Part shown: one piece after another, positions 22,495 through 56,570 of the stretch
Layout: every line of letters starts with the position of its first letter
How positions within the stretch are numbered: position 1 is the first letter of the stretch
Source of the DNA: a phage
DNA length: 64,000 bases
Sequence record: PZ026127.1
Strand: one strand, 5' to 3'
Made by a program: the position numbers and the translations under genes
The notes under the pieces: model-generated
The model's database searches: none
What the model was told of the DNA's origin: nothing
The model's input: only the letters and a program-made list of their open reading frames with translations

Positions 22495-22788
22495 ATGAGA
22501 GTCTGTAGAGTTGTTAACAAGTATAAAGAAGATTTTGATGTCAACATCCAACGTGGAACTATGTGGGGTAATCCATTTAAAGATGGAACCCGCGAGGAAA
22601 ACATCAAGAACTTTAAAGAATACTTTATTGCTAAAATAAAATCGGGCGAAATTAAAAGAGAACATCTTGAAACCCTTAGAGGTATGCGTATAGCGTGTAC
22701 CTGTAAACCTAAGGACTGTCATGGGGATGTGATAGCCTTGATTGTTAACAAACTTTTCAAAGACACGTTCTCATTAGAAGACCTATAA
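22495..22788 (+). CDS. hypothetical protein with GNPF and C.C...C.HGD motifs
   Basis: 97-aa ORF between td and nrdA; conserved-looking WGNPF and CTCKPKDCHGD motifs; family not confidently identified. Confidence 0.45.
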   Translation: MRVCRVVNKYKEDFDVNIQRGTMWGNPFKDGTREENIKNFKEYFIAKIKSGEIKREHLETLRGMRIACTCKPKDCHGDVIALIVNKLFKDTFSLEDL

Positions 22789-22854
22789 ATATCAGTCCAT
22801 GCTTAACAGGTTCTATGATAGAATAATTGTAGAACCTAACATATTGAGGAAATT

Positions 22855-25110
22855 ATGCAAGTACAAAAAAGTAGTGGTGTATCCCAAGATTTTGACGCAC
22901 AAAAAATTATTAAAGTTCTGACTTGGGGCTGTGAAGGAACCCAAATCGACCCCTATGAATTATACGAAGAAATCAAATCTCATCTTCGTGATGGTATGAC
23001 TACCAAAGATATCCAAAATCTGACTGTTAAGGTAGCAGCCAACCTTATTTCAGTTGAAGAGCCTGATTACCAATATGTTGCTGCAAAGCAATTGATGTTT
23101 GCACTGCGTAAAGAAGTTTATGGCCAGTTCGAACCACGTAGCTTTATCGACCATATTTCCTATTGTGTTAACGAAGGTAAATATGACCCTGAATTGCTGT
23201 CTCGATATTCTGCAGAAGAAATTACTTTCTTAGAATCTCATATCAAGCATGAACGTGACTTTGAATTGACCTATGCAGGTGCGATGCAGCTGAAAGAGAA
23301 ATATCTGGTTAAAGATAAGACTACGGGTAAAATCTACGAAACCCCTCAGTTCGCTATCATGTGTATTGGCATGGCCTTACACCAAGAAGAGCCAGGTAAT
23401 CGTTTGGCACATATTATTCGTTTTTATGATGCTGTAAGTACCCGTCAGGTTTCATTACCAACTCCTATTATGGCTGGAGCACGTACACCTACCCGTCAAT
23501 TTAGTTCTTGTGTGGTTATTGAAGCAGGCGACTCACTGAAATCTATTAACAAAACTGCTAACTCAATAATTGAATACATTTCTAAACGTGCAGGTATTGG
23601 TATCAACGTTGGTATGATTCGTGCTGAAGGTTCTCGTATTGGCATGGGTGAAGTCAAACATACTGGCGTTATTCCATTCTGGAAACATTTCCAGACTGCT
23701 GTTAAATCATGTTCACAAGGTGGAATCCGTGGCGGCGCTGCTACTGCTTATTATCCTATTTGGCATTTGGAAGTTGAAAATCTGCTCGTTCTGAAAAACA
23801 ACAAAGGCGTAGATGAGAACCGTATTCGTCATATGGACTACGGAATCCAGATGAACGACCTTATGATGGAACGTTTCGGTAAAAATGATTACATCACGCT
23901 GTTTAGTCCTCATGAAATGGGTGGTGAGCTTTATTATTCTTATTTCGAAGACCAAGACCGTTTCCGTGAATTGTATGAAGCAGCTGAAAAAGACCCTAGT
24001 ATTCGTAAGAAACGTATTAAAGCACGTGACCTCTTCGAATTGTTCATGACCGAACGTTCAGGCACTGCACGAATTTATCCTCAGTTCGTTGATAACACTA
24101 ACAACTTCACACCATTTATTCGTGAAAAAGCTCCTATTCGACAGAGCAACTTGTGTTGTGAAATTGCTATCCCGACTACTGACGTGAATAGTCCGGACGC
24201 TGAAATTGGTTTGTGTACGTTGTCTGCATTCGTATTGGATAACTTCGATTGGCAGGACCAAGACAAAATCAACGAGCTCGCTGAAGTCCAGGTACGTGCA
24301 CTTGATAACCTATTGGACTACCAAGATTATCCTGTTCCTGAAGCTCTGAAGGCCAAGAAACGTCGTAATCTAGGTGTTGGTGTTACTAACTACGCCGCTT
24401 GGTTGGCAAGCAACTTTGCTTCTTATGAAGACGCTAATGATTTAACTCATGAACTGTTTGAGAGATTACAATATGGACTTATCCGAGCATCAATCAAGTT
24501 GGCCGAAGAAAAAGGACCTTGCGAGTATTATTCAGACACTAAATGGTCTCGAGGCGAATTACCTATCGACTGGTACAATAAAAAGATTGACCAAATCGCA
24601 GCCCCTAACTATGTTTGTGACTGGACGTCGTTGCGGGAAGACTTGGCTAAACATGGCATCCGTAATAGCACATTATCAGCACTTATGCCGTGTGAATCAA
24701 GCAGCCAGGTTTCCAACTCTACAAACGGTATCGAACCTCCACGTGGTCCGGTAAGTATTAAAGAATCTAAAGAAGGTAACTTCCGTCAGGTAGTTCCTAA
24801 TGTAGAACATAACCAAGGACTCTACGATTACGCTTGGAGCCTCGCTAAGAAAGGTAATAAACCTTATCTTACCCAAGTGGCAATAGCGTTGAAATGGGTG
24901 TGTCAATCAGCATCAGCGAATACATATTACGACCCGCAGATTTTCCCAAAAGGAAAAGTTCCGATGTCGGTAATGCTTGATGACCTGCTGTATTTCTGGT
25001 ACTACGGCGGTAAGAACCTTTACTATCATAACACCCGTGATGGCTCTGGTACTGATGACTACGAAATCGAAACTCCTAAAGCCGACGATTGTGCAGCTTG
25101 TAAGCTTTAA
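22855..25110 (+). CDS. nrdA: ribonucleotide reductase large subunit
   Basis: 751 aa (T4 NrdA 754 aa); class Ia RNR features including C-terminal Cys pair (CAACKL). Confidence 0.95.
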   Translation: MQVQKSSGVSQDFDAQKIIKVLTWGCEGTQIDPYELYEEIKSHLRDGMTTKDIQNLTVKVAANLISVEEPDYQYVAAKQLMFALRKEVYGQFEPRSFIDHISYCVNEGKYDPELLSRYSAEEITFLESHIKHERDFELTYAGAMQLKEKYLVKDKTTGKIYETPQFAIMCIGMALHQEEPGNRLAHIIRFYDAVSTRQVSLPTPIMAGARTPTRQFSSCVVIEAGDSLKSINKTANSIIEYISKRAGIGINVGMIRAEGSRIGMGEVKHTGVIPFWKHFQTAVKSCSQGGIRGGAATAYYPIWHLEVENLLVLKNNKGVDENRIRHMDYGIQMNDLMMERFGKNDYITLFSPHEMGGELYYSYFEDQDRFRELYEAAEKDPSIRKKRIKARDLFELFMTERSGTARIYPQFVDNTNNFTPFIREKAPIRQSNLCCEIAIPTTDVNSPDAEIGLCTLSAFVLDNFDWQDQDKINELAEVQVRALDNLLDYQDYPVPEALKAKKRRNLGVGVTNYAAWLASNFASYEDANDLTHELFERLQYGLIRASIKLAEEKGPCEYYSDTKWSRGELPIDWYNKKIDQIAAPNYVCDWTSLREDLAKHGIRNSTLSALMPCESSSQVSNSTNGIEPPRGPVSIKESKEGNFRQVVPNVEHNQGLYDYAWSLAKKGNKPYLTQVAIALKWVCQSASANTYYDPQIFPKGKVPMSVMLDDLLYFWYYGGKNLYYHNTRDGSGTDDYEIETPKADDCAACKL

Positions 25111-33714: not shown

Positions 33715-33948
33715 ATGAAATTTCGTTTAGTTAAGTTTTCAGGTCTGAACTCAAAAGGTGAAAACCTGATAGCTTATTCAGTAGAATATAAAAAGTACTT
33801 TTTCTCTCGTTGGAAATCGTACTATAAATCCGAGTGGGTTCGCGCTGAAATGAAATATAAAACGGTGCCTATTCTTGATAATTGCCATAGCCTATTAAGA
33901 GCTCTAAAAGAGCGTAATGCAACCACTATCAAAACTATTCTGGAATAA
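33715..33948 (+). CDS. hypothetical protein
   Basis: 77 aa; RBS GAAGGAAA. Confidence 0.5.
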   Translation: MKFRLVKFSGLNSKGENLIAYSVEYKKYFFSRWKSYYKSEWVRAEMKYKTVPILDNCHSLLRALKERNATTIKTILE

Positions 33949-33950
33949 TT

Positions 33951-34250
33951 ATGATTTTAACCGAACAAGAAACTATTCGTCTCCGTGAAAAAGTCAAGAC
34001 TATTTTGTCTGTTGGTTTTCACGAAGTCCTGTTTGAAAAAGCTGATGGTAGTGCCCGTCGTATGACTTGTACTCGCGACTTAGACCTGCTGCCGTATAAA
34101 GAAGTCCAGGCCCCTGGGCCAGAAGCCAATAAAGAACCTGTTAATTATATCAGAGTATTTGATACCAAGGTTAATGATTGGCGCTCATTCCGTTTCGATA
34201 AGCTGATTTCTATTAACGGCCTTCAGACTGAAACTCTGCTTGTCCTGTAA
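33951..34250 (+). CDS. hypothetical protein
   Basis: 99 aa. Confidence 0.5.
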   Translation: MILTEQETIRLREKVKTILSVGFHEVLFEKADGSARRMTCTRDLDLLPYKEVQAPGPEANKEPVNYIRVFDTKVNDWRSFRFDKLISINGLQTETLLVL

Positions 34251-34308
34251 TATGCTTTAAGAATAGCGTGTTATTATTAATCTATCAACAAAACAATATG
34301 GATTAAAT

Positions 34309-34632
34309 ATGGAACTTCCTATTAAAGCGGTCGGAGAATATGTTATTCTCGTTTCCGAACCAAAACAAGCCGGTGATGAAGAAACTACTGCATCTGGTAT
34401 CGTTATTGGCAAACTTCATCAAGGTGAAATCCCTGAACTTTGTGAAATTTATTCTGTAGGACCTGATGTCCCTGAAGATTTTTGTGAAGTAGGCGATTTG
34501 ACTCCACTTCCTGTTGGTAAGATTGCTAACGTGCCTCATCCGTTGGTTGCATTGGGTATTAAACAACCTAAAGAAATTAAACAAAAATTCGTTACCTGTC
34601 ACTATAAAGCTATTCCTTGCCTTTATAAGTGA
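34309..34632 (+). CDS. 31: co-chaperonin gp31 (GroES-like)
   Basis: 107 aa (T4 gp31 111 aa); [52 protein letters not shown] near-identical to T4. Confidence 0.9.
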
Positions 34633-34640
34633 TATAAATA
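34633..34640 (+). promoter_or_regulatory. late promoter-like TATAAATA downstream of gene 31
   Basis: Exact TATAAATA on plus strand; about 140 nt upstream of rIII. Confidence 0.4.
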
Positions 34641-34778
34641 ATAATATGGATTGGCTGCCGGACTAGTTAGTTAACCGGAGAATCCTAAGCGGTGGACTAC
34701 AACTGAGAGACTTGCCGAAAGGAAGTGAAATTCAGAAGAACGTGTCCACCAATCTTTATCTCGAATTGAGAAACTAAA

Positions 34779-35027
34779 ATGAACAAACAATTGAATCACG
34801 CTCTTGAACTGCAACGCAACGCTTGGAACAACGGTCACGAAAACTACGGCGCATCTATTGATGTTGAGGCCGAAGCACTGGAAATCCTGCGTTATTTCAA
34901 ACATCTGAATCCTGCTCAGGCTACTCTGGCTGCTGAACTGGAAGCTAAAGATGAACTGAAATTTGCTAAGCCTTTGGCTTCAGCAGCTCGTAAAGCAGTA
35001 CGTCATTTTATTATTACCCTGAAGTAA
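34779..35027 (+). CDS. rIII: RIII lysis-inhibition accessory protein
   Basis: 82 aa (T4 RIII 82 aa); position between 31 and the 30.x cluster. Confidence 0.65.
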   Translation: MNKQLNHALELQRNAWNNGHENYGASIDVEAEALEILRYFKHLNPAQATLAAELEAKDELKFAKPLASAARKAVRHFIITLK

Positions 35028-35289
35028 GTTAAATCGAGGAGCCGTCGAACTGTTTGATTAATGATTTGCGAATCATTATAGTTTTAAGACCCCAACAGTT
35101 TTACGGTGTACCTCTTGAATGTATTTTGTACTATCACGCGTCAGAAAAAGGTTATCTGTCTAAGTCGTGGTTGGTATGATGACGAGGTTTATGGTTATCC
35201 TGTCGTTAAATATCCGAAACCTATGTTCCCCTTGAGGGCTTGCGCAGGCAACGCCAATAAGTCCTGCATCCTAATTTAAGAGATTTAAA

Positions 35290-35451
35290 ATGGCCAAGAA
35301 AGAAGTTAAAGTAGTTGACGGTACCTCTAAACGCGCTGGTTACAAGCGTGCGTCCAACAAGCGTATCGATCAGGTAGTTGATAAGCTTCAAGCTCGTGCT
35401 CGTGCGGTATTGCGTGCAGATGCTGCTTGCTTTGGTAAGCCTCAGGCATAA
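35290..35451 (+). CDS. small basic protein (53 aa)
   Basis: ORF read by eye, Lys/Arg-rich; followed by intrinsic terminator. Confidence 0.35.
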   Translation: MAKKEVKVVDGTSKRAGYKRASNKRIDQVVDKLQARARAVLRADAACFGKPQA

Positions 35452-52921: not shown

Positions 52922-52933
52922 TATTTATAAATA
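52922..52933. promoter_or_regulatory. overlapping divergent late promoters (gene 51 leftward, gene 26 rightward)
   Basis: TATTTATAAATA contains TATAAATA on both strands. Confidence 0.6.
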
Positions 52934-56548: not shown

Positions 56549-56570
56549 TATAAATATAGTTATATTTATA
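56549..56570. promoter_or_regulatory. divergent late promoters (inh rightward, uvsW leftward)
   Basis: plus TATAAATA at 56549-56556; minus TATAAATA at 56563-56570. Confidence 0.55.

What the first reader, a model, noticed from the sequence alone, without database searches (positions are those of the whole stretch)
34633..34778. Structured 146-nt intergenic region between gene 31 and rIII beginning with a TATAAATA late-promoter motif
The 31-rIII spacer has no ORF over a few codons. It starts with an exact TATAAATA immediately after the gene 31 stop and contains long-range complementary segments (GGATTGG...CCGGAGAATCC and GGTGGAC...GTCCACC), consistent with a structured 5' UTR of rIII or a small RNA. 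The rIII start has only a weak Shine-Dalgarno, so leader structure could matter for its translation.
Basis: seen in the sequence. Interest (0 to 1): 0.45.

Follow-up and report, generated by a model that had tools for sequence, protein, structure and literature searches.

The report
Conserved three-hairpin leader of phage rIII
The 146-base gap between the head-chaperone gene 31 and the lysis-timing gene rIII of this T4-type phage is a real, evolutionarily conserved folded RNA leader (late promoter, two hairpins, then a small hairpin that hides the ribosome-binding site). It most likely tunes how stable and how well translated the rIII message is: an unannotated but mechanistically ordinary control element.

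Summary
TATAAATA (34633-34640) directly follows the gene 31 stop codon, and both complementary segment pairs exist.

Homologous spacers from about 50 distinct T4-type phages (several genera, plus T2 and T6) share one architecture:
- TATAAATA.
- HP1, starting 5 or 8 nt later.
- A 4-5 nt linker.
- HP2.
- An 8-10 nt A/U-rich spacer.
- HP3, NCUC-loop-GAGN, with the Shine-Dalgarno in its 3' arm.
- 7-9 nt, then AUG.

Covariation is strong. The HP2 base stem is 96-99% paired, and nearly all its pairs show compensatory changes. No shuffle (0 of 500) reached the observed score, and register-shifted controls collapsed. G-U pairs place the RNA on the + strand.

Hairpin interiors are swapped or deleted between close relatives while the base stems persist. 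No Rfam family matches, and there is no tRNA, conserved ORF, paralogue in the window, or annotation in 889 phage records.

Best reading: a cis-acting leader, which is also the 31-rIII intercistronic element. HP1 would be a protective hairpin at the 5' end. HP2 would be a barrier or leaky terminator. HP3 would occlude the ribosome-binding site beside an A/U-rich standby tract.

A separate late small RNA is not excluded. It is weakly supported in this phage, whose U tract after HP2 is poor.

Verdict: a new member of a known kind, of moderate interest.

The parts
34630..34632 (+). Stop codon (TGA) of gene 31 (gp31 co-chaperonin, ORF 34309-34632)
   Evidence: The homologous region in phage QL01 and others is annotated head assembly cochaperone.
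34633..34640 (+). TATAAATA, T4-type late promoter box
   Evidence: Exact match. It is present at the same place upstream of rIII in all but one distinct homologue that reached far enough upstream, followed by an AT-rich segment as described for T4 late promoters (PMC2988020).
34641..34647 (+). AT-rich initiation segment (ATAATAT). The late transcription start is expected near 34646. This is inferred, not mapped.
   Evidence: Inference from 'TATA box about one helical turn upstream of the start' (PMC2988020). HP1 starts 8 nt after the box in 32 of 43 leaders and 5 nt after it in 10 of 43.
34648..34685 (+). HP1. Base stem GGAUU/AAUCC (34648-34652 with 34681-34685). Inner stem CCGG/CCGG (34658-34661 with 34675-34678). 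The apical loop carries AGUUAAC.
   Evidence: MFE fold. Covariation of the base stem: GGAUU/AAUCC, GAAUUG/CAAUUC, GAAGAG/CUCUUC, GUAAUCU/AGAUUAC. The inner stem covaries as CCGG/CCGG, UCGG/CCGA, CUGG/CCAG, CCAG/CUGG.
34686..34690 (+). Single-stranded linker UAAGC (consensus UAWRY, 4-5 nt)
34691..34750 (+). HP2. Base stem GGUGGAC/GUCCACC (34691-34697 with 34744-34750). Middle stem CUGAG/UUCAG (34703-34707 with 34731-34735). Distal stem ACUU-G-CC/GGAAGU (34710-34716 with 34721-34726). GAAA tetraloop at 34717-34720.
   Evidence: MFE fold. The base stem is 96.4% paired with 6 of 7 pairs compensatory on the MAFFT alignment, and 98.8% paired with 7 of 7 on the model-fitted alignment. The inner stems are compensatory in RNAalifold. 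There are 16 G-U cells and 0 A-C cells, which places the RNA on the + strand.
34751..34758 (+). A/U-rich single-stranded spacer AAUCUUUA. It may be a ribosome standby or S1 site, an RNase E target, or a weak terminator tail.
   Evidence: Its length is 8-10 nt and it is A/U-rich in nearly all leaders. At least 5 of the first 8 nt are U in 15 of 43 leaders; here the count is 4. It does not meet the terminator criteria in this window.
34759..34771 (+). HP3, UCUC-GAAUU-GAGA. The 3' arm, GAGA (34768-34771), is the rIII Shine-Dalgarno.
   Evidence: Fold, -2.2 kcal/mol. In 45 of 45 leaders with this element the outer pair is complementary: CCUC/GAGG 36, UCUC/GAGA 8, ACUC/GAGU 1.
34779..35027 (+). rIII coding sequence (82 aa), the gene served by the leader
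   Evidence: It is 89% identical to T4 RIII, and the region is annotated rIII lysis inhibition accessory protein in many records.

Best explanation
The spacer is a cis-acting structured RNA. It is the roughly 135-nt 5' leader of a late rIII mRNA that starts a few bases after TATAAATA. It is also the intercistronic segment of read-through transcripts coming from gene 31.

It has three modules.
1. HP1 sits 0-2 nt from the expected 5' end. It most likely protects the message from 5'-end-dependent decay by RNase E or RNase G.
2. HP2 is a stable stem followed by an A/U-rich tract. It most likely acts as a barrier or leaky terminator. It would give gene 31 transcripts a stable 3' end and attenuate flow into rIII.
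3. HP3 pairs the Shine-Dalgarno with an upstream anti-SD (NCUC). The single-stranded A/U tract in front could serve as a ribosome standby or S1 site.

The combined outcome would be a long-lived but poorly translated message.

Shown here: the conserved architecture, the base pairing, the strand and the fixed geometry. Inferred, not shown: the transcription start, the stabilisation, any termination and the translational effect.
For: Conservation.
- The spacer is as conserved as the flanking genes: 80.6% identity to T4 over the spacer against 81.5% over 31-spacer-rIII.
- It matches 889 phage records.

Architecture.
- 33 of 33 independently folded three-hairpin leaders give the same layout, with z-scores from -0.8 to -5.9.

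Covariation of the HP1 and HP2 outer stems on a MAFFT alignment.
- 88.3% of cells are paired against 68.5% in shuffles.
- The covariation score is 0.488 against 0.18, reached by 0 of 500 shuffles.
- Slid controls score at most 0.163.
- An accidentally mis-registered structure gave only 43% paired.
- RNAalifold on 13 close relatives finds 10 of 23 pairs with compensatory changes.

HP3 is always complementary, with three pair types at its outer position.

Geometry.
- HP1 starts 5 or 8 nt after the TATA box.
- The linker is 4-5 nt.
- The spacer is 8-10 nt.
- The distance from HP3 to AUG is 7-9 nt.

Distant relatives.
- Phages that place a true terminator before TATAAATA still begin the rIII leader with a hairpin (L066, L072, L075).

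Natural deletions and swaps.
- These keep the base stems. T6 and RB14 reduce HP1 to GAAUUG-AGUUU-CAAUUC. JS98 swaps the HP1 interior.

Comparison within the window.
- Other TATAAATA sites have leaders of about 15-35 nt without 5' hairpins.

Literature.
- T4 rIII is stated to have a late promoter, and RIII accumulates up to about 35 min (PMC9409239).
- Over-expressed rIII slows cell growth (PMC6832632).
- Inhibitory SD hairpins are established in T4 genes e, soc, 49 and I-TevI (PMC3014915).
- 3' ends of T4 prereplicative transcripts are thought to mark stable RNA ends rather than termination sites (PMC6024815).
Against: - No transcript data were available. The start site is only inferred.
- HP3 is weak (-2.2 kcal/mol here), so its effect on translation may be small.
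- In this window the tail after HP2 is not terminator-like.
- The interchangeable interiors carry conserved unpaired nucleotides: a GAAA tetraloop, the UACAA/AAGAACGUG internal loop and the AGUUAAC loop. That is more conservation than a generic stabilising hairpin needs and hints at a specific partner.
- Placing the late promoter upstream of a terminator-like hairpin is odd for a plain leader.
- Much of the sequence set is phylogenetically related, so shuffle statistics overstate independence.
Confidence: 0.55

Rival explanations
1. It is a stand-alone late small RNA. Transcription from TATAAATA would end at the U-rich tract after HP2 and release an RNA of about 100-110 nt (HP1-linker-HP2). 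This RNA would act in trans or as a decoy. rIII expression would then depend only on read-through. The arrangement resembles lambda PR'-tR' or the Stx phage StxS RNA.
For: - In about a third of lineages HP2 plus its tail looks like a canonical intrinsic terminator: at least 5 U in the first 8 nt in 15 of 43 leaders. L054 meets the terminator scan criteria.
- Only 8-10 nt separate HP2 from the SD hairpin, so no second promoter fits there.
- The interiors carry conserved unpaired nucleotides.
- No trans-acting sRNA has yet been characterised in T4, so one could have been overlooked (PMC3014915).
- There is a precedent for late-promoter-proximal termination producing a regulatory RNA (PMC7547250, listed).
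Against: - In this window, in T4, L047 and L070 the tail does not meet terminator criteria.
- The interiors are deleted or exchanged between close relatives, which is unlike a seed-bearing sRNA.
- The only invariably single-stranded stretch is a 4-5 nt linker.
- No evidence was found for a discrete transcript.
Confidence: 0.15
2. It is mainly a processing and 3'-end element for gene 31 mRNA. RNase E would cut the A/U-rich spacer. HP1-HP2 would then cap the 3' end of the gene 31 message against exonucleases, leaving rIII on a separate, less stable RNA. The hairpins would serve gene 31 rather than rIII.
For: - The A/U-rich single-stranded tract flanked by stable hairpins is the usual context of RNase E sites (established knowledge).
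- T4 3' ends are thought to mark stable RNA ends (PMC6024815).
- A MotA-box-like middle promoter lies upstream of gene 31 (34253-34277), so read-through transcripts carry the whole element.
Against: - HP1 keeps a fixed distance from TATAAATA. Distant phages keep a 5' hairpin after the promoter even when the terminator lies upstream of it. Both tie HP1 to the late 5' end rather than to the gene 31 3' end.
- This reading does not explain the HP3 covariation.
Confidence: 0.15
3. It is a protein-binding translational operator. The conserved loops and the A/U tract would bind a specific protein, such as ribosomal protein S1 modulated by RIII itself (feedback), RegA, or another phage RNA-binding protein.
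For: - RIII binds the C-terminal domains of S1 (PMC9409239).
- S1 binds A/U-rich single strands (established knowledge), and such a tract sits immediately upstream of the occluded SD.
- Loop nucleotides are conserved.
- T4 genes 32 and 43 use leader operators (PMC3014915).
Against: - The hairpin interiors are not conserved across genera and can be reduced to 4-6 nt loops (L054, L070, T6). No single binding site is therefore universal.
- The GGAG in HP1 (34677-34680) departs from the RegB/S1 consensus GGAGRAYARAA at positions 8, 9 and 10, and it is base-paired.
- No binding data exist.
Confidence: 0.1
4. It has no RNA function. The hairpins would be neutral by-products of recombination or remnants of inserted palindromic DNA, or the region would encode a tiny peptide.
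For: - Interior modules are exchanged between phages.
- An NUG lies near the predicted start, with a 6-codon ORF in this window and in T4.
Against: - Compensatory changes maintain the pairing.
- G-U pairs occur without any A-C pairs, which indicates an RNA of the + strand.
- The geometry is fixed.
- The mini-ORF varies from 1 to about 10 codons, is absent or start-stop only in many phages, and has no SD.
- The modules are single-copy per genome and occur only at this locus.
Confidence: 0.04

Closest known systems
Inhibitory SD-sequestering hairpins of T4 genes e, soc, 49 and I-TevI (PMC3014915)
   Same: A T4-type late promoter sits next to a hairpin that pairs the Shine-Dalgarno of a lysis-related or late gene. 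The hairpin is conserved among T-even relatives.
   Different: In those genes the 5' arm lies upstream of or across the late promoter, so late transcripts escape the hairpin. Here both arms of HP3 (34759-34771) lie about 120 nt downstream of TATAAATA, so early, middle and late transcripts all carry the occluded SD. Two further hairpins precede it.
5'-terminal stem-loop mRNA stabilisers of the ompA type (Emory, Bouvet and Belasco 1992; from my own knowledge)
   Same: The hairpin begins within about 0-2 nt of the predicted 5' end, any stable stem suffices, and the interior sequence is free to vary. This matches the swaps and deletions seen in HP1.
   Different: The start site and any effect on half-life are untested here. 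The HP1 interior carries a conserved loop motif that a pure stabiliser would not need.
Late promoter followed by a proximal terminator that yields a short RNA (lambda PR'-tR' 6S RNA; Stx phage StxS, PMC7547250)
   Same: The order is late promoter, then a structured RNA of about 100 nt, then a hairpin with a U-rich tail, then the late gene.
   Different: No antiterminator is known for T4 late transcription. The U tract is poor in this phage and in T4. The downstream gene starts only about 28 nt after HP2.
Translational operators of T4 genes 32 and 43 (PMC3014915)
   Same: [quoted passage not shown]
   Different: Those operators have a defined protein-binding hairpin or pseudoknot with a conserved loop. 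Here no universally conserved loop exists, and no binding protein is known.
Intrinsic (Rho-independent) terminator between gene 31 and rIII in distant T4-like phages (L065, L072, L075)
   Same: It occupies the same intergenic position as HP2, and HP2 is terminator-like in some lineages (L054, L048, L057, L062).
   Different: In the distant phages the terminator precedes TATAAATA. In this window the hairpin follows the promoter, is 60 nt long with internal loops, and lacks a U run.

Membership tests
T4-type late promoter | Exact TATAAATA box on the coding strand | tested here: met
   34633-34640
T4-type late promoter | AT-rich segment immediately downstream, with no -35 element required | tested here: met
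   ATAATAT at 34641-34647. Homologues have ATAAT, TTATT or AAATT. Criterion taken from PMC2988020.
T4-type late promoter | Positional conservation upstream of the same gene in relatives | tested here: met
   Present in all but one distinct locus that reached far enough upstream. A chance occurrence alone would not be significant.
T4-type late promoter | gp55/gp33/gp45-dependent initiation about 6 nt downstream | not testable with these tools
   It needs primer extension or dRNA-seq. PMC9409239 states that T4 rIII has a late promoter, without giving coordinates.
Conserved structured RNA (cis-regulatory leader) | Helices supported by compensatory substitutions beyond shuffled and register-shifted controls | tested here: met
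   Accidental mis-registered control.
Conserved structured RNA (cis-regulatory leader) | Strand assignment from G-U versus A-C pairs | tested here: met
   HP2 has 16 G-U cells and 0 A-C cells.
SD-sequestering hairpin | Shine-Dalgarno bases paired in a conserved helix | tested here: met
   NCUC/GAGN is complementary in 45 of 45 leaders, with three pair types at the outer position.
T4 e/soc/49/I-TevI class of late-promoter-relieved SD hairpins | The 5' arm lies upstream of or across the late promoter, so late transcripts lack it | tested here: not met
   Both arms (34759-34762 and 34768-34771) lie downstream of TATAAATA 34633-34640. Criterion taken from PMC3014915.
5'-terminal stem-loop mRNA stabiliser | Stem begins within a few unpaired nucleotides of the 5' end | tested here: inconclusive
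   HP1 starts 5 or 8 nt after the TATA box in 42 of 43 leaders. This is consistent with 0-2 unpaired nt only if the start is where late promoters usually initiate, and the start is not mapped.
5'-terminal stem-loop mRNA stabiliser | Removing the stem shortens mRNA half-life in an RNase E-dependent way | not testable with these tools
   An experiment is required.
Intrinsic terminator | G+C-rich stem followed directly by a U run | tested here: not met
   None was found in window 33900-35400 or in T4. The tail AAUCUUUA has 4 U in 8 nt. The criterion is met in homologue L054 and, by tail composition, in 15 of 43 leaders.
Rfam families, tRNA and tmRNA | Match to a curated covariance model or to ARAGORN | tested here: not met
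   Only chance-level Rfam hits appear (E of at least 0.79) in the window region and in 19 homologous loci. ARAGORN finds no tRNA.
RegB/S1 cleavage site | Single-stranded GGAGRAYARAA | tested here: not met
   GGAGAAUCCUA (34677-34687) has C at positions 8 and 9 and U at position 10, is base-paired, and is absent in T4.
Riboswitch or ribozyme | Conserved ligand-binding or catalytic core across homologues | tested here: not met
   The interiors of HP1 and HP2 are replaced or deleted between genera. The minimal versions have loops of 4-6 nt.
Sigma-70 (early) promoter inside the spacer | -35 and -10 hexamers with 16-18 bp spacing, conserved | tested here: not met
   The only match, TTGCCT-17-AATAAT (34617-34645), overlaps the gene 31 end and is not present in T4.

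The most novel reading that the evidence does not exclude
The most novel reading not excluded has three linked parts.
- The late promoter drives an abundant, discrete RNA of about 100 nt (HP1-linker-HP2).
- Its interchangeable interior modules are specific binding sites or decoys for host or phage factors.
- rIII translation is coupled to it through the A/U tract, ribosomal protein S1 and RIII itself.

If true, this would be the first conserved regulatory RNA of T-even phages, and a feedback loop for lysis inhibition.
Probability: 0.12. Interest if true: 0.7.

Novelty: new member of a known kind. Interest (0 to 1): 0.4.

Why it matters
rIII is one of the classical rapid-lysis genes. Its product helps hold T-even phages in lysis inhibition and has recently been shown to bind ribosomal protein S1.

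T4 genomes are tightly packed, and late leaders are usually 15-35 nt. A conserved structured leader of 90-160 nt across several genera is therefore unusual, yet it is unannotated in the 889 matching phage records.

The leader suggests that rIII output is set post-transcriptionally, by message stability, attenuation and SD occlusion. That gives a concrete handle for testing how the duration of lysis inhibition is controlled.

The natural module swaps inside fixed base stems form a ready-made mutational series. They could also help phage engineers who need stable, low-translation expression cassettes.

The mechanisms proposed are all well known, so the finding refines annotation rather than changing concepts.

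Tried and rejected
- Rfam, on the window region and on 19 homologous loci: only chance-level hits.
- tRNA and tmRNA: none.
- Paralogues of the spacer in the 64-kb window, by short-word blastn: none.
- Further copies in the window of the whole-leader covariance model R1: one hit only, 99.5 bits.
- Further copies in the window of the HP1-interior model R2, with filters off: one hit only.
- Genome-wide repeats of four interior modules in 50,697 phage records: always one place per genome, at this locus.
- RegB site at the GGAG in HP1: fails the consensus, is base-paired, and is not conserved.
- Sigma-70 promoter within the spacer: not conserved.
- Intrinsic terminator in this window: criteria not met.
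- Coding potential: the mini-ORFs are not conserved.
- Antisense RNA: the minus strand folds almost as well (z = -2.1), but the G-U pattern favours the + strand.
- Loop-to-TIR kissing interaction, UUAGUU 34667-34672 with AACUAA 34772-34777: seen by eye, but absent in T4, so treated as chance.
- Literature searches for a prior description of this structure found none.
- Two papers that might describe the T4 spacer could not be read: Raudonikiene and Nivinskas 1992, recalled from memory and looked up by PubMed id, and the 2003 T4 genome review.
- My first structure string for the count of structure pairs was off by one or two columns. It was corrected.

Full report
**What the window is.** The 719 bases from 34309 to 35027 are 100% identical to Escherichia phage QL01 and about 81% identical to T4. 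The spacer itself is 100% identical to phage Bp7 and vB_EcoM_005. This is therefore a T4-type phage whose closest relatives include the Dhakavirus JS98. ORF 34309-34632 is gp31, the GroES-like head-assembly co-chaperonin. ORF 34779-35027 is RIII, 82 aa and 89% identical to T4 RIII. In T4 the gene order is cd, 31.2, 31.1, 31, rIII, 30.9, all on one strand.

**Check of the observation.**
- TGA stop at 34630-34632, then TATAAATA at 34633-34640.
- GGATT at 34648-34652 pairs with AATCC at 34681-34685.
- GGTGGAC at 34691-34697 pairs with GTCCACC at 34744-34750.
- A weak SD, GAGA, at 34768-34771, 7 nt before the ATG at 34779.

The + strand RNA folds into three hairpins at -34 kcal/mol, z = -2.4. The minus strand folds nearly as well, z = -2.1, so a single-sequence fold cannot decide the question.

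There are two small corrections.
- A mechanical 21-codon TTG ORF (34712-34777) and a 6-codon ATG ORF (34646-34666) exist, but neither is conserved.
- TATAAATA by itself is not rarer than chance in this AT-rich window: 9 sites against 7.1 expected.

**Comparative evidence.** The spacer matches 889 phage records, with no feature annotated under it in the records listed. It is about as conserved as the flanking genes: 80.6% identity to T4 against 81.5% over the whole 31-rIII stretch.

I collected the rIII upstream region from three sources:
- IMG/VR contigs.
- Metagenome contigs.
- GenBank phages, including T4, T2, T6, RB14, ST0 and ESCO47.

This gave 51 distinct leaders. In a broad set of enterobacterial T4-type phages the layout is the same:
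- TATAAATA next to or overlapping the gene 31 stop.
- HP1.
- A 4-5 nt linker (UAWRY).
- HP2, with consensus base stem GGUGGAN/NUCCACC.
- An 8-10 nt A/U-rich spacer.
- HP3 (NCUC, a 4-8 nt loop, GAGN).
- 7-9 nt, then AUG.

Each of the 33 three-hairpin leaders from the first collection, folded on its own, gave this architecture. The z-scores ran from -0.8 to -5.9.

**Covariation.** On a plain MAFFT alignment of 33 leaders (A2), I counted the outer stems of HP1 and HP2.
- 88.3% of cells are paired, against 68.5% after shuffling.
- 75 cells have changes on both sides, against 20.8 after shuffling.
- The covariation score is 0.488 against 0.18, and no shuffle (0 of 500) reached it.
- Sliding the 3' partner by 1-3 columns drops the score to 0.163 or less.
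- HP2 alone is 96.4% paired, and 6 of its 7 pairs show compensatory changes.

My first, mis-registered structure string gave only 43% paired. That served as an unplanned negative control.

A covariance model built from A2 finds exactly one strong hit in the window: 34633-34781, 99.5 bits, E = 9e-13. It also finds 47 homologous loci. On that model-fitted alignment HP2 is 98.8% paired, with all 7 pairs compensatory. This alignment leans towards the model's structure.

RNAalifold on 13 close relatives independently predicts HP1, the HP2 base stem and two inner HP2 stems. Of its 23 pairs, 10 show compensatory changes. For example, the distal stem ACUU.CC/GGAAGU in the window becomes AUCU.UC/GAAGAU in T4, around an invariant GAAA tetraloop.

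HP2 contains 16 G-U cells and no A-C cells, so the RNA is read from the + strand.

HP3 was scored directly. All 45 leaders with this element are complementary at the outer pair: CCUC/GAGG 36, UCUC/GAGA 8, ACUC/GAGU 1.

**Geometry and comparison with other late promoters.** HP1 begins 8 nt after TATAAATA in 32 of 43 leaders, and 5 nt after it in 10 of 43. T4 late promoters initiate about one helical turn downstream of the upstream end of the box, in an AT-rich segment (PMC2988020). HP1 should therefore sit 0-2 nt from the 5' end. This is an inference, because no start site has been mapped here.

More distant T4-like phages (L065, L072, L075) place a G+C-rich hairpin with a T run before TATAAATA. 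L066, L072 and L075 still start the rIII leader with a small hairpin.

Seven of the eight other TATAAATA sites in this window lie 17-36 nt from an ATG and show no 5' hairpin. The eighth is the nrdA site noted below. The 138-nt structured rIII leader is atypical.

**Hairpin interiors.** The interiors behave as exchangeable modules.
- JS98 (RIII 98% identical) keeps the GGAUUGG...AAUCC base of HP1 but has a different interior.
- T6 and RB14 reduce the T4 HP1 to GAAUUG-AGUUU-CAAUUC.
- The YCGGA...AGUUAMCCGR module of the window's HP1 sits in HP2 of L059 and L076.

Each module is single-copy per genome and confined to this locus. The base stems are therefore the selected core.

Even so, the modules keep conserved unpaired nucleotides. 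I cannot explain this (note).

**Mechanism.** My best reading is a cis-acting leader and intercistronic element.
- HP1 would act as a 5'-terminal protective stem-loop. This is the ompA-type principle, which I cite from my own knowledge.
- HP2 would act as a barrier or leaky terminator. It would also give gene 31 transcripts a stable 3' end. T4 3' ends are thought to mark stable RNA ends (PMC6024815).
- HP3 would occlude the SD, with the A/U tract serving as a standby or S1 site.

This fits the biology in three ways.
- RIII accumulates until about 35 min (PMC9409239).
- Over-expression of rIII slows cell growth (PMC6832632).
- Lysis inhibition must be sustained, so a long-lived but weakly translated message would be useful.

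The terminator role is uncertain.
- The tail in this window (AAUCUUUA) and the tail in T4 fail the terminator scan.
- L054 passes the scan.
- 15 of 43 leaders have at least 5 U in the first 8 nt.

**Rival explanations.**
- A discrete late small RNA, terminated after HP2. Its appeal is that the promoter lies upstream of a terminator-like hairpin.
- An element that mainly serves processing and 3'-end stability of the gene 31 message.
- A protein operator. The idea of RIII-S1 feedback is suggested only by the RIII-S1 interaction reported in PMC9409239.
- No RNA function, or a tiny peptide. The covariation, the strand asymmetry and the non-conserved mini-ORFs largely exclude this.

**Comparison with known systems.** The closest known elements are the SD-sequestering hairpins of T4 genes e, soc, 49 and I-TevI (PMC3014915). 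Their defining feature is a 5' arm upstream of the late promoter, so that late transcripts escape the hairpin. That feature is not met here. The rIII leader works like them only in the sense of SD occlusion, and it is not a member of that class.
- No Rfam family matches.
- The GGAG in HP1 is not a RegB site.
- No conserved sigma-70 promoter lies inside the spacer.

PMC9409239 states that T4 rIII has early, middle and late promoters, so the late promoter itself is known. I found no description of the conserved three-hairpin structure. However, the 1992 paper on rIII (recalled from memory) and the 2003 T4 genome review could not be read.

**Verdict.** This is a real, selected RNA structure. It is best classed as a new member of a known kind, namely structured cis-regulatory mRNA leaders. 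Interest is moderate at 0.4. It gives T4 biologists a clean, testable handle on rIII regulation, but no new principle is demonstrated.

Noticed in passing
window 34253-34277 (+): TGCTTTA (a MotA-box-like motif), then 12 nt, then TATTAT, about 30 nt upstream of the gene 31 start. It looks like the MotA-dependent middle promoter known for T4 gene 31. If so, middle transcripts would read through the whole spacer.
   Followed up: no
window 35054-35082 (+): A sigma-70-like promoter, TTGATT-17-TATAGT, sits directly after the rIII stop. Its spacer is itself an inverted repeat: AATGATT-TGCG-AATCATT (35060-35077). It is reminiscent of the promoter-early-stem-loop cassettes described for T4-type phages (from memory).
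   Followed up: no
window 22784-22854 (+): TATAAATA and a MotA-like ATGCTTAAC are followed by a perfect 12-bp hairpin (AGGUUCUAUGAU...GUAGAACCU) in the leader of the 751-aa nrdA-like ORF that starts at 22855. This is the only other TATAAATA site in the window with a structured leader.
   Followed up: partly
L036 (JS98), L099 (T6), L104 (RB14), L059, L076, L068 compared with window 34648-34750: The interiors of HP1 and HP2 are swapped, deleted or moved between the two hairpin positions in different phages, even between phages with 98% identical RIII. The base stems stay fixed. The modules are single-copy per genome and confined to this locus, yet they keep conserved unpaired nucleotides (for example AUGCG..CCAAAUGGG..GGCUC, and a YUAAAC loop with a UACC bulge).
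   Followed up: partly
window 34646-34666 (+): An NUG codon sits at the predicted late transcription start in almost all leaders. It is AUG here, opening a 6-codon ORF (MDWLPD*). T4 has MNWVSE*. Other phages have AUG-UAA or UUG-UAA, and L035 has ACG. The ORF is not conserved, but the near-constant NUG at the start is unexplained. A leaderless mini-ORF cannot be fully excluded.
   Followed up: partly
window 52922-52933 and 56549-56570: Back-to-back TATAAATA boxes lie on opposite strands. One pair overlaps as TATTTATAAATA at 52922-52933. The other pair is at 56549 (+) and 56563 (-). Each box is followed by a short leader and an ATG, so these are possible divergent late promoters.
   Followed up: no
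L065, L072, L075 (distant T4-like phages), upstream of rIII: Here the order is: gene 31 stop, then a G+C-rich hairpin with a T run (a canonical terminator), then TATAAATA, then a short hairpin, then ATG. The terminator and the promoter are therefore in the opposite order from this window.
   Followed up: partly
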